Of a stretch of DNA of 64,000 nucleotides, positions 4,276 to 52,892 are shown piece by piece. Below the pieces are notes generated by a model that saw only the letters and a list, made by a program, of their open reading frames with translations, did no database searches and was not told the DNA's origin. Source of the stretch: Lentisphaeria bacterium. Lineage in GTDB: Bacteria > Verrucomicrobiota > Lentisphaeria > Victivallales > UBA1829. The stretch is from positions 3,298 through 67,297 of the forward strand of contig JAGBXB010000060.1 of the NCBI GenBank assembly GCA_017629515.1, read 5' to 3'. How positions within the stretch are numbered: the stretch's first letter is position 1; each line of letters starts with the position of its first letter. A program made the position numbers and the translations under genes.

Positions 4276-4308
4276 GTTTTTCTCCTTTTTGTTATGGGGG
4301 ATTATTAA

Positions 4309-4517
4309 GGTACTGAAAAAAGTCCCCAAAAGTCTGAAAAGTTATTGACTTTGTTCTGCAAATGGAGCATTTTGAATCTGTTACCACTGCGGGCAGCAGC
4401 CCCGAAATGAGATGTATATTTTGAGTGCTTGCTTGTGCACCCGCCCCAAATTACCATTCACAGAACTTTGTCACTATTCTTTTCCTTTGTTCCGGATGAC
4501 TTTTTTCATTACCTCTT
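4309..4517 (-). ncRNA. Copy B of a repeated, apparently structured non-coding element (candidate sRNA or cis-regulatory leader) carrying an 11-codon mini-ORF (4474-4509)
   Basis: 65/70 nt identical, including a 35-nt perfect block, to 52152-52221 on the + strand. Outer helix 4513-4498 pairs with 4324-4309 (15/16). Inner helix 4466-4454 pairs with 4365-4353 (13 bp, 2 G-U). SD AAGAGG + ATG encodes MKKVIRNKGKE*. Confidence 0.55.
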
Positions 4518-5490
4518 ATTGCAAAAATTTACGCATTTTTCCAATTTGTTCTTTGGCAAGAGCGATCAGATCCGTCTTTTCAAATCTTTTTTCATCAAGG
4601 ATATCCATACGCTCTTTCAGATATTCCCCGAAAGTCGTCCCCCGTTCGGCGATTTCCAGAACCTGTTTCCAGTAGGAAATCACATCCCCGGCATATTCCC
4701 GTACCCAGAATGCCCGGCTTCCGGCATCGTAAATAATACATCTTTCCAGAGGGTAGGAACTTTTTTCATACTGGGACTCAATAAATTCCGGAGCCATAAG
4801 GGAATCTCTCTTTACAAGATCGGTTCCGGTAAGGCGGATGGAAAGGGGGGAAGAGGGATCCGGAACGGAAAAACACCCTTCCAGATAGATAAGGAAAGTA
4901 TCCTGATAACCGGGGAAAAGTTCCCGGCATTTTGCATCAGCTTGTGCAAGAATCGTTGCCGCTTGCGGGCCGCCATAGGTAAAAAAGACGATCCTTTTCA
5001 AATCCGTTCCGGCTTCTTTTGCCTCCCGGATCAGTTCAAAAAGAGCATACTGCAAACTTGTACCGGTTGCCACCACATCTCCGATAACAAAAGATGTCTC
5101 ATTGGGGAAATACAATTTTCTGTATGCGTTTTCCGTAATATGCCAGGATTCGGGATCTGCATCATTCCTTGCCCGCTGTGCGCTTAAAAAACAGGTGGTG
5201 TGATTGTTCCAGGAATAGGCGTTGGCAAGGGCTTTTCTCAACCCGAAATTCAATCCCCCCCGCAGGATCTTCACTACCACAGTGGAAGATTCTTTCAATC
5301 CGAAATCGTATGCTTTCAGGATCTTTTCGCAAGCGGAACACAATTTATCCGTATATTGTACTCCTGCGATCACCGGGTCATTGCAGATCCTTCTCGTTTC
5401 CGGGGTACTTGCGATAAATTCCTTTAATAAAAGTCCATTTTCACAGCCATAGATCTTCACATCTTCCTGTGAACAAATTTCTTTAAGCAT
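4516..5490 (-). CDS. Divergent type-I phosphoribosyltransferase, UPRT-like, with a long C-terminal extension
   Basis: VVKILRGGLNFG resembles the Upp PILRAGLGM motif. VIGDVVATGTS matches the PRPP-binding loop (DPMLATGGS). At 324 aa it is about 110 aa longer than Upp and lacks the C-terminal GLGDAGDR motif. Confidence 0.55.
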   Translation of the reverse strand: MLKEICSQEDVKIYGCENGLLLKEFIASTPETRRICNDPVIAGVQYTDKLCSACEKILKAYDFGLKESSTVVVKILRGGLNFGLRKALANAYSWNNHTTCFLSAQRARNDADPESWHITENAYRKLYFPNETSFVIGDVVATGTSLQYALFELIREAKEAGTDLKRIVFFTYGGPQAATILAQADAKCRELFPGYQDTFLIYLEGCFSVPDPSSPLSIRLTGTDLVKRDSLMAPEFIESQYEKSSYPLERCIIYDAGSRAFWVREYAGDVISYWKQVLEIAERGTTFGEYLKERMDILDEKRFEKTDLIALAKEQIGKMRKFLQ

Positions 5491-52028: not shown

Positions 52029-52104
<76 letters not shown>

Positions 52105-52140
52105 TTTTTTTATTGCTTTTCTGCGAAAAATTTTTAACGA

Positions 52141-52307
52141 AAGAGGAAATTAAAAAAGTCATCCGGAACAAAGGAAAAGAATAGTGGCAAAGTACTGTAA
52201 AAGGTAATTTGAGGCGGGTGCCCTCTGCGGCAACAAGTTCAAAATACTTTTTTTACAGGGTAAAGTCAATAAATTTTCTGGCTTTCGGAGAGTTTTGAAA
52301 TTGCCTC
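52141..52307 (+). ncRNA. Copy A of the repeated structured non-coding element (candidate sRNA or leader), 37 nt downstream of tRNA-Trp
   Basis: Homologous to 4309-4517 (-). Outer helix 52143-52157 pairs with 52293-52307 (12/15). Inner helix 52195-52204 pairs with 52249-52258. Conserved 3' hairpin AAAGTC...GGCTTT at 52262-52285. Mini-ORF frame is retained, but with ATT in place of ATG. Confidence 0.55.
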
Positions 52308-52322
52308 GAAAGAGAGGGTATC

Positions 52323-52892
52323 ATGGTATTATCTGCTGCAAAGTTTTTTTTCTCCGTCTGTTTTCTTGTGATCTTCTGCTCCTGCAGGTTTTTGCCGGAA
52401 CCGGGAAATGAGCGTACACATTATTACGATCTGGGAATCCCGGAACGCGCCCAACTTGCTGCCGGAACGCGGGTAACGGTATTGCCTTTCACCGTTCTTT
52501 CCGGAGAGAGATTCCGTATGGTGGAAAGAAAACAGTTCCTTCTGGAAAACGATGACTGCAACAAATGGCAGATGCCTCCGGGTTCTCTTGTGACAAAATA
52601 CCTTACATTGTATTTCCGTCAGAACCTTTCCGCGCCCGGAAAAGCCACCCGGAATATTATAGTGGGCGGAACAGTCACAGCATTTGAAAATGACGGCAAA
52701 AACGCCATTCTGGGACTTGTATACCGCATTACCTTTCCTGAAATCAAAGGGACAAAGTCGACTCCTGTATCAAGAAATATTCTTATAGAGGAAAAACTGC
52801 TGAACGGTTCTCCCGCCTCGTTCGCCTGCGCCATGTCAAAGGCAATGGGAAAAGCGGCACAATATATAGTAAAGGATATAGAAAATAAATGA
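52323..52892 (+). CDS. PqiC/YmbA-like ABC-transport auxiliary lipoprotein (DUF330-like)
   Basis: Lipobox IFCSC|R, followed by the HYYDLG motif and a size (189 aa) typical of the family. Weak, motif-level call only. Confidence 0.4.
   Translation: MVLSAAKFFFSVCFLVIFCSCRFLPEPGNERTHYYDLGIPERAQLAAGTRVTVLPFTVLSGERFRMVERKQFLLENDDCNKWQMPPGSLVTKYLTLYFRQNLSAPGKATRNIIVGGTVTAFENDGKNAILGLVYRITFPEIKGTKSTPVSRNILIEEKLLNGSPASFACAMSKAMGKAAQYIVKDIENK

What the first reader, a model, noticed from the sequence alone, without database searches (positions are those of the whole stretch)
52141..52320. Repeated about 165-nt non-coding element right after tRNA-Trp: rod-like fold, conserved internal loop, compensatory base changes (copy A)
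The stretch 52152-52221 matches the minus strand of 4506-4437 at 65 of 70 positions, including a 35-nt perfect block (AAAAAAGTCATCCGGAACAAAGGAAAAGAATAGTG). Similarity resumes in a 3' module (AAAGTCAATAAnTTTTCnGnCTTTnGGnGA). Both copies fold by hand into the same architecture. (a) An outer helix joins the two ends; here 52143-52157 pairs with 52293-52307. (b) A large internal loop has a nearly invariant 5' strand, and its 3' strand forms a small hairpin (52262-52267 with 52280-52285). (c) An inner helix pairs 52195-52204 with 52249-52258. (d) The apex is variable. Where the copies differ inside helices, pairing is kept. In the outer helix, G-C in copy B becomes T-A here; this is the ATG to ATT change with its partner C to A. 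In the inner helix, T-A becomes A-T. Several other changes are G-U compatible. A closed rod with a big conserved bubble, sitting next to a tRNA, resembles stable regulatory RNAs such as 6S RNA. Alternatively it could be a 5' leader, since it ends 16 nt before the SD of the PqiC-like/uppP operon. I do not recognise it as any riboswitch or RNA family I know.
Basis: seen in the sequence. Interest (0 to 1): 0.75.

Follow-up and report, generated by a model that had tools for sequence, protein, structure and literature searches.

The report
Small palindromic mobile repeat in operon spacers
The two look-alike stretches are copies of a small hairpin-forming, non-coding insertion element that has landed in two operon spacers of an uncultured gut Lentisphaeria bacterium; this is a familiar kind of bacterial "junk-or-tuning" repeat, not a new regulatory RNA such as 6S.

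Summary
The repeat is real. Copy A is 52143-52307 (+) and copy B is 4307-4515 (-). They share a 35-nt identical block and a 3' module, and each folds into one long, stable rod (z -4.1 and -6.6). No Rfam family matches either copy, 6S included.

Orthologous loci settle what it is. In related Lentisphaeria, tRNA-Trp sits 25-70 nt from the lipoprotein/uppP start, and the 324-aa gene sits 18-35 nt from the cytosine permease. None of these spacers holds the element, so both copies are lineage-specific insertions of about 165 and 209 bp. Each is bracketed by a 4-5 bp direct repeat, CGAAA for A and AATAA for B (joint chance about 2e-4 to 1e-3). The termini are 18-nt imperfect inverted repeats (GAGG...CCTY).

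This is the anatomy of a MITE-like, bcr1/ERIC-type palindromic intergenic repeat that is co-transcribed with its host operons. Pairing is kept on the transcribed strand: 0 of 47 pairs broken, 2 compensatory pairs, and 13 G·U against 2 A·C arm mismatches.

The proposed big conserved bubble with a small hairpin is not supported. Copy number is the weak point: I found only 2 copies in about 77 kb of this species and none elsewhere. This is a new member of a known kind, of modest interest.

The parts
52143..52307 (+). Copy A of the palindromic element (about 164-165 nt). It lies between tRNA-Trp and the SD of the lipoprotein/uppP operon.
   Evidence: The sequence was read directly and aligned to copy B. 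The MFE rod is -49.0 kcal/mol, z -4.1. The element is absent from the same spacer in relatives L012-L016 and L020-L022.
4307..4515 (-). Copy B of the element (209 nt). It lies between the stop codon of the 324-aa phosphoribosyltransferase-like gene and the SD of the cytosine permease gene.
   Evidence: Seen. The rod is -72.7 kcal/mol, z -6.6. Relatives L066, L069-73 and L074 have only 18-35 nt at this position.
52138..52142 (+). Left flanking direct repeat CGAAA of copy A. Its partner is at 52307-52311, and the first C of that partner may equally be the last base of the element.
   Evidence: Read from the sequence. The chance of a flanking 5-mer match with +/-1 nt slack is 0.014 per element.
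52307..52311 (+). Right flanking direct repeat CGAAA of copy A.
4516..4520 (-). Left flanking direct repeat AATAA of copy B. It contains the TAA stop codon of the upstream gene.
4302..4306 (-). Right flanking direct repeat AATAA of copy B.
52152..52186 (+). The 35-nt block in the 5' arm that is identical in both copies (its twin is at 4472-4506 on the minus strand).
   Evidence: 2 matches in the window, 0.00 expected.
52262..52285 (+). Conserved 3'-arm module AAAGTCAATAAnTTTTCnGnCTTT (its twin is at 4329-4352 on the minus strand). It pairs across the rod with the 5' block.
4396..4439 (-). A 44-nt apical segment found only in copy B. It forms extra apical hairpins and repeats the TCAAAAT motif.
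4474..4509 (-). An 11-codon mini-ORF (MKKVIRNKGKE) behind the terminal GAGG in copy B. In copy A the same frame (52149-52184) begins with ATT instead of ATG. It is probably not a gene.
   Evidence: The ATG-to-ATT change is matched by C-to-A in the pairing partner.
52029..52104 (+). tRNA-Trp (CCA), the ancestral upstream neighbour of the lipoprotein/uppP operon. It is context, not part of the element.
   Evidence: ARAGORN and Rfam. The tRNA is conserved next to the operon in all relatives.

Best explanation
The two stretches are copies of a small, non-autonomous, palindromic insertion element. It is MITE-like and closest in anatomy to bcr1 of the Bacillus cereus group and to ERIC/Correia repeats. 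The host is an uncultured ruminant-gut Lentisphaeria species.

**Shown.**
- Each copy was inserted into a short A-rich spacer inside a transcription unit, in the lineage of this species only.
- Each insertion duplicated 4-5 bp of target.
- Each copy has imperfect inverted-repeat termini of about 18 nt, and the whole element is one long imperfect palindrome.
- It has no real coding capacity.

**Inferred.**
- A transposase encoded elsewhere mobilised it through a staggered cut.
- Because both copies lie co-oriented between co-directional, tightly linked genes, they are transcribed as part of the operon mRNA and fold into a self-contained RNA rod of 165-209 nt.
- That rod is kept intact by selection on the sense strand. 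It most likely acts, if at all, as a double-stranded processing or stability determinant (an RNase III/RNase E type target or a protective hairpin) between tRNA-Trp and the lipoprotein/uppP message, and between the two cistrons of the pyrimidine-salvage operon.
- It does not change predicted access to the downstream ribosome-binding sites.
For: **Insertion.** In relatives with 46-66% identical lipoprotein, tRNA-Trp is 25-70 nt from the start codon and the element is missing. In relatives with 74-84% identical permease, the upstream gene is 18-35 nt away, against 240 nt in the window.

**Flanking direct repeats.** CGAAA flanks copy A and AATAA flanks copy B, and the two differ from each other. 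Chance is 0.014 per copy with +/-1 nt slack, about 2e-4 jointly, or 1.3e-3 with +/-2 nt slack.

**Termini.** The arm-to-arm alignment starts with inverted-repeat ends that I counted by eye as 14/18 (A) and 16/18 (B) matching. The element also matches its own reverse complement (E 2.7e-4).

**Rod fold.** The outer-helix pair probability is about 0.94 with flanks included. SD accessibility is unchanged compared with the reconstructed empty site: 0.29 against 0.27, and 0.55 against 0.54.

**RNA-level constraint.**
- 47 consensus pairs, none broken in 4 sequences; 2 double-sided and 12 G-U-compatible one-sided changes.
- The sense strand folds better than the antisense: z -4.1 against -2.3, and -6.6 against -4.75.
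- Arm mismatches are 13 G·T against 2 A·C.

**No known RNA family.** No Rfam family matches.

**Precedent.** bcr1 is about 155 bp, has a non-conserved genomic distribution, is flanked by 5-bp direct repeats, is transcribed, and shows compensatory changes that keep the RNA structure. MITE-type repeats are co-transcribed and some regulate mRNA stability (PMC3184786).
Against: - Only two copies are known. There is none elsewhere in the window, in 13 kb more of the same species, or in about 200 kb from relatives.
- Exact-word scans found none in 185,579 GTDB species genomes, JGI metagenomes or viral contigs, and blastn found none in plasmid or phage records.
- No parent insertion sequence or transposase was identified.
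- The duplication length is ambiguous by 1 nt between the copies (4 or 5 bp).
- No true empty site at over 95% identity is available. All strains of the species sampled carry both copies.
- The two copies differ by about 13-26%, and the 5' arm is much better conserved than the 3' arm. A plain transposase-recognition model does not predict this.
- The G·U excess could partly reflect a transcription-associated C-to-T bias.
- There are no expression data.
Confidence: 0.68

Rival explanations
1. It is a dedicated cis-regulatory leader or riboswitch-like RNA that controls translation or transcription of the downstream gene (lipoprotein/uppP, cytosine permease). In this view the invariant 5' strand is a ligand- or protein-binding site.
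For: - Both copies sit immediately upstream of an SD and are co-oriented with the gene.
- A 35-nt block is invariant.
- Pairing is kept through G-U and compensatory changes on the sense strand.
Against: - It is absent from the orthologous leaders in every relative examined.
- The two downstream genes are functionally unrelated.
- The fold is a near-continuous rod without a pocket or bubble.
- Predicted SD accessibility is the same with and without the element.
- No Rfam riboswitch or leader reaches threshold. The best hits are rimP at 26 bits against a 47-bit cutoff, and preQ1-II at 17 against 47.
- Flanking direct repeats point to insertion.
Confidence: 0.1
2. It is a trans-acting stable small RNA gene, 6S-like or otherwise, present in two paralogous copies.
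For: - The closed rod-like fold of 165-209 nt has a strong z-score.
- One copy sits next to a tRNA.
Against: - There is no 6S (RF00013) or other Rfam match at E<=10.
- There is no central open-promoter-like bubble.
- No promoter-like or terminator-like site is shared by the two copies.
- Copy B begins at the stop codon of the upstream gene, inside an operon.
- It is absent from related species, whereas 6S is near-universal and syntenic.
Confidence: 0.04
3. It is a leader-peptide device. The terminal GAGG acts as an SD for the 11-codon ORF MKKVIRNKGKE, and translation of that ORF melts the 5' arm and changes downstream expression.
For: - In copy B, GAGG-N5-ATG is followed by an 11-codon ORF.
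- The ORF lies exactly in the invariant block.
Against: - Copy A has ATT in place of ATG, and the change is compensated in the pairing partner. This argues that pairing, not the start codon, is kept.
- The putative SD and start are buried in the outer helix (P unpaired 0.01).
- There are no synonymous differences that could show coding constraint.
- No similar peptides were recoverable.
Confidence: 0.05
4. It is a non-mobile segmental duplication. One copy was pasted into the second site by illegitimate or microhomology-mediated recombination, and the flanking short repeats are by-products or chance.
For: - Only two copies are known despite wide searching.
- An AAATTTTT 8-mer lies 7 nt upstream of both sites.
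Against: - Both sites are insertions relative to the outgroups, so neither is an ancestral 'home'.
- Both have their own, different flanking direct repeat at equivalent element ends.
- The copies are too diverged (74-87% identity) to be a recent one-step copy, yet they keep the palindrome.
Confidence: 0.1

Closest known systems
bcr1 repeats of the Bacillus cereus group (Okstad 2004; Klevan 2007; reviewed in PMC3184786)
   Same: - The size class is similar (about 155 bp against 165-209 bp).
- The genomic distribution is not conserved between relatives.
- Both are flanked by 5-bp direct repeats.
- Both are intergenic and transcribed with neighbouring genes.
- Base-pair compensatory changes maintain an RNA-level double-stranded structure.
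   Different: - There is no sequence similarity.
[quoted passage not shown]
- As I recall, the bcr1 target repeat is a fixed TTTAT, whereas here the two duplications differ (CGAAA, AATAA).
- bcr1 has tens to more than 100 copies per genome; here the copy number is unknown (2 seen).
- The phylum differs (Bacillota against Lentisphaerota).
ERIC / IRU (Enterobacteriaceae) and Correia / nemis elements (Neisseria): classical bacterial MITEs
   Same: - They are imperfect palindromes of 100-160 bp with terminal inverted repeats.
- They insert in intergenic, transcribed regions, often on the 5' side of genes.
- They fold into long RNA hairpins that can be cleaved by RNases and alter mRNA stability.
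- Size variants arise from internal insertions or deletions.
   Different: - Those families duplicate a TA dinucleotide, not 4-5 bp.
- Correia elements carry promoters and an IHF site. No promoter-like site is shared by the two copies here.
- Those families have high, documented copy numbers.
6S RNA (Rfam RF00013)
   Same: It is a closed rod-shaped fold of about 180 nt.
   Different: - There is no covariance-model match.
- There is no large central bubble.
- It is not conserved in relatives.
- It has no own promoter or terminator.
- It is embedded in operon spacers with flanking duplications.

Membership tests
MITE (miniature inverted-repeat transposable element) | Terminal inverted repeats | tested here: met
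   The 5' end against the reverse complement of the 3' end gives 14/18 (A) and 16/18 (B), counted by eye on the alignment. The whole element is an imperfect palindrome.
MITE (miniature inverted-repeat transposable element) | Target-site duplication flanking each copy, different between copies | tested here: met
   CGAAA flanks copy A and AATAA flanks copy B. Joint chance is about 2e-4 to 1.3e-3. The length is ambiguous by 1 nt (4 or 5 bp).
MITE (miniature inverted-repeat transposable element) | Presence/absence polymorphism at orthologous sites (evidence of insertion) | tested here: met
   Both sites are empty and short in related species. There is no polymorphism within the species: all strains carry both copies.
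MITE (miniature inverted-repeat transposable element) | Small size and no transposase coding capacity | tested here: met
   The elements are 165 and 209 nt. The only conserved frame is an 11-codon ORF that lacks ATG in copy A.
MITE (miniature inverted-repeat transposable element) | Multiple dispersed copies per genome | tested here: inconclusive
   There are 2 copies in about 77 kb of this species. The rest of the genome could not be read, and no copies were found in any public collection scanned.
MITE (miniature inverted-repeat transposable element) | A related autonomous IS with matching terminal repeats | not testable with these tools
   The terminal sequence does not recur in the window. 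No ISfinder library or complete genome was available.
bcr1-like transcribed palindromic repeats | Sequence homology to bcr1 | not tested
   No bcr1 sequence was available for comparison. The resemblance is in anatomy only, so this is an analogue, not a member.
6S RNA (RF00013) | Match to the 6S covariance model, and a central bubble flanked by closing and terminal helices | tested here: not met
   There is no hit at gathering threshold or at E<=10. The rod has only small internal loops.
6S RNA (RF00013) | Conservation as a gene across related species | tested here: not met
   It is absent from orthologous loci and from about 200 kb of relatives' DNA.
Riboswitch / conserved cis-regulatory leader | Conserved upstream of orthologous genes, with a ligand-pocket architecture | tested here: not met
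   The orthologous leaders lack it. It has rod architecture. No Rfam cis-regulatory family reaches threshold.

The most novel reading that the evidence does not exclude
The element is not passive. It would be a mobile RNA 'cassette' kept under selection at the RNA level. Its 35-nt invariant purine-rich 5' strand would be the docking site of a host or element-encoded factor (an RNA-binding protein, an RNase, or a guide-like partner). The element would then install the same post-transcriptional control, such as processing of tRNA-mRNA or intercistronic junctions, wherever it lands, always in the sense orientation just upstream of an SD.
Probability: 0.12. Interest if true: 0.6.

Novelty: new member of a known kind. 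Interest (0 to 1): 0.27.

Why it matters
- It stops a false lead. A rod-shaped, compensatory-looking 'new regulatory RNA next to a tRNA' is in fact an inserted palindromic repeat.
- It documents a previously undescribed repeat family in Lentisphaeria. I found no MITE-type elements reported for this poorly studied, uncultured gut lineage: one literature search returned a single paper, which I did not open.
- It is a clean example of how such elements mimic structured-RNA signals (stable fold, G-U-compatible changes). Comparison with orthologous empty sites resolves the question.
- If the sense-strand pairing bias holds up over more copies, it would add a further case, as reported for bcr1, of RNA-level selection on a mobile repeat.

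Tried and rejected
**Searches for more copies.**
- Exact-word scans with element cores gave only chance hits or none. GTDB species genomes with a 20-mer gave 4 chance hits. JGI metagenomes with an 18-mer gave 40 chance hits. Viral contigs with two patterns gave 0.
- blastn in 'distant' mode against plasmids and phages gave no match.
- A chimeric query of all conserved six-frame peptides of the element, meant to catch spurious ORFs called over other copies, gave nothing at E<=10.
- nhmmer and a covariance model (R1) run over the window plus about 250 kb of fetched loci found only the known copies.
- Extending the same genome by contig look-ups added 13 kb and no new copy. One look-up was wasted on a wrong start codon.

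**Other dead ends.**
- Rfam at gathering and permissive thresholds gave nothing credible.
- The promoter/terminator scan found no site shared by the two copies.
- An SD-sequestration switch (CCUC pairing with either the 5' GAGG or the downstream SD) is rejected. The rod closes with P of about 0.94, and SD accessibility equals that of the reconstructed empty site.
- Strain-level SNP density in the element (1.2-1.4%) is similar to the flanks (0.05-1.9%). This gives no signal of special conservation or divergence.

Full report
**1. The observation.**

The window holds two related stretches. Copy A lies just after tRNA-Trp (tRNA at 52029-52104). Copy B lies on the minus strand around 4300-4520. 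Positions 52152-52221 and 4506-4437 agree at 65 of 70 positions and share a 35-nt identical block. A 3' module, AAAGTCAATAAnTTTTCnGnCTTT, is also shared. Both motifs occur exactly twice in the window, against 0.00 and 0.01 expected from shuffles. This pair is the largest repeat in the 64 kb. blastn, nhmmer and a covariance model find no third copy, whole or partial.

Each copy folds into one long rod that is far more stable than shuffles. For the finding's own intervals the values are -50.4 kcal/mol (z -3.9) and -73.7 kcal/mol (z -6.2). For the elements trimmed to their ends the z-scores are -4.1 and -6.6.

The two double-sided compensatory changes he named are real.

His 'large conserved internal loop with a small hairpin' is not. 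That hairpin has probability 0.00, and the two 'loop' strands pair with each other across the rod.

**2. What it is.**

No Rfam family matches, either at gathering thresholds or at E<=10. That includes 6S and every riboswitch or leader model.

The source is an uncultured Lentisphaeria bacterium known only from gut-type metagenome assemblies and MAGs. The exact proteins occur on ENA/Logan contigs and on NCBI MAG contigs, and named homologues are 'Lentisphaeria', 'Victivallales' or 'Oligosphaeraceae'.

Comparison with orthologous loci decided the matter.

- **Copy A site.** Homologues of the downstream lipoprotein (46-66% identity) were traced to their contigs. The synteny LysM protein, tRNA-Trp, lipoprotein, UppP, histidine phosphatase is conserved. 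But the tRNA is only about 25-70 nt from the lipoprotein start codon and nothing resembling the element is there. In the window that distance is 218 nt.
- **Copy B site.** In relatives with 74-84% identical permease, the 324-aa upstream gene ends 18-35 nt before the permease start, against 240 nt in the window.

Both copies are therefore insertions of about 165 and 209 bp that arose in this species' lineage, into short spacers inside transcription units.

**3. Ends and flanks.**

Both copies start with GAGG(A/T)AAT and end with CCT(C/T). The terminal 18 nt are inverted repeats, 14/18 and 16/18 (my count on the alignment). The whole element matches its own reverse complement.

Copy A is bracketed by CGAAA (52138-42 and 52307-11). 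Copy B is bracketed by AATAA (4520-16, which includes the upstream gene's TAA stop, and 4306-02). Removing element B plus one AATAA restores a spacer that aligns with the closest relative, L066.

A simulation on the window gives a probability of 0.014 per element for such a 5-mer match, allowing +/-1 nt at each boundary. That is about 2e-4 for both, or 1.3e-3 with +/-2 nt. The exact duplication length is ambiguous by one base (4 or 5 bp).

Terminal inverted repeats, target-site duplications that differ between copies, small size, no coding capacity and empty orthologous sites are the defining anatomy of a MITE-like element.

**4. RNA-level signal.**

Both copies are co-oriented with the genes on both sides, so they should be transcribed in the sense orientation. 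In the consensus structure of A, a strain variant of A, B and a strain variant of B:

- none of 47 pairs is broken;
- 2 pairs change on both sides;
- 12 pairs change on one side through G-U.

The sense strand folds better than the antisense strand, also relative to its own shuffles. Among transition-type mismatches between the arms, 13 are G·T, which pair in sense RNA, and 2 are A·C. A and B are not fully independent, so this is suggestive and not a proper test.

The five strain polymorphisms fall in unpaired or loop positions or make wobble pairs. SNP density in the element equals that of the flanks.

The rod is self-contained. With natural flanks it closes with P of about 0.94. The predicted accessibility of the downstream SD equals that of the reconstructed empty site. 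A simple SD-masking switch is therefore not supported.

**5. Mechanism proposed.**

- *Shown:* insertion with short duplication into A-rich intra-operon spacers, the palindromic architecture, and a stable sense-strand fold.
- *Inferred:* mobilisation in trans by an unidentified transposase; co-transcription with the host operons; and a role, if any, as a double-stranded processing or stability element between tRNA-Trp and the lipoprotein/uppP message and between the two cistrons of the putative pyrimidine-salvage operon. In that operon the upstream gene is a below-threshold phosphoribosyltransferase-like match and the downstream gene is a cytosine/purine permease.

This is how ERIC and Correia elements are reported to act. 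bcr1 shows the same combination of 5-bp direct repeats, non-conserved location, transcription and compensatory changes (PMC3184786).

**6. Rivals.**

- *6S-like sRNA:* it fails the covariance model, the bubble, conservation, and the requirement for its own promoter and terminator.
- *Conserved leader or riboswitch:* it fails conservation at the orthologous leaders, and the two downstream operons are unrelated.
- *Leader peptide (MKKVIRNKGKE):* it is undermined by ATT replacing ATG in copy A with a compensating partner change, and by burial of the SD and start in the outer helix.
- *One-off non-transpositional duplication:* this cannot be excluded, because only two copies are known.

**7. Weak points.**

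Copy number is unknown. No copy was found in GTDB representatives, JGI metagenomes, viral contigs, plasmids or phages. No parent insertion sequence was found, and there are no expression data. The much better conservation of the 5' arm (35 nt identical) than of the 3' arm is unexplained. Gene conversion between copies, or an extra constraint on that strand, are both possible.

**8. Verdict.**

The feature is real. It is a new, lineage-restricted member of the known class of palindromic, MITE-like intergenic repeats that are co-transcribed as RNA hairpins. It is not a new class of regulatory RNA. Interest is modest.

Noticed in passing
window 52128-52135 (+) and 4523-4530 (-): The same 8-mer, AAATTTTT, lies 7 nt upstream of both insertion points. 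At copy B it is ancestral coding sequence of the upstream gene (K-F-L, also present in relative L066), so it is not part of the element. It may reflect a target-site preference of the unknown transposase, but with n=2 this is only a hint.
   Followed up: partly
window 52029-52325; L012-L016 and L020-L022: tRNA-Trp is followed within 25-70 nt by the start codon of the PqiC-like lipoprotein/uppP operon in all related Lentisphaeria loci. That leaves little room for a separate promoter, so the tRNA and the mRNA probably share one transcript. The LysM, tRNA-Trp, lipoprotein, UppP, histidine phosphatase order is conserved.
   Followed up: partly
window 52255 and 52281 (variants in L007 and L010): Two strain variants of copy A carry A-to-G at 52255 and G-to-A at 52281. 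These are exactly the bases found at the aligned positions of copy B. This suggests gene conversion between the copies, or retained ancestral polymorphism.
   Followed up: partly
L016:1-120: In one relative's contig the 5' half of tRNA-Trp is replaced by unrelated sequence joined within the tRNA. This is either an assembly chimera or a sign of integration or rearrangement at the tRNA gene.
   Followed up: no
L013:20-75: One relative has a GC-rich, terminator-like hairpin (CCTTCCGG...CCGGACGGAAGG) between tRNA-Trp and the lipoprotein gene, in the same spacer where the window's lineage acquired the palindromic element. This spacer repeatedly accommodates hairpins.
   Followed up: no
window 4516-5490 (-): The 324-aa protein upstream of the cytosine permease is tightly linked to it across Lentisphaeria. 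It has no Pfam or NCBIfam family above threshold, only a sub-threshold phosphoribosyltransferase match (20.9 bits against a 26.3-bit cutoff). It may be an uncharacterised pyrimidine-salvage enzyme.
   Followed up: partly
L026, L030, L038, L040, L042, L044, L046, L047, L054, L058, L062, L065 (JGI soil/peat-type contigs): The chance 18-mer scan hit a well-conserved, unrelated sequence (…GTTTGTCTCAACCCTGCCGGACTCATCCGGAACAAAGGAAACGAAG…) that recurs in a dozen environmental contigs. It has nothing to do with the element and was not examined.
   Followed up: no
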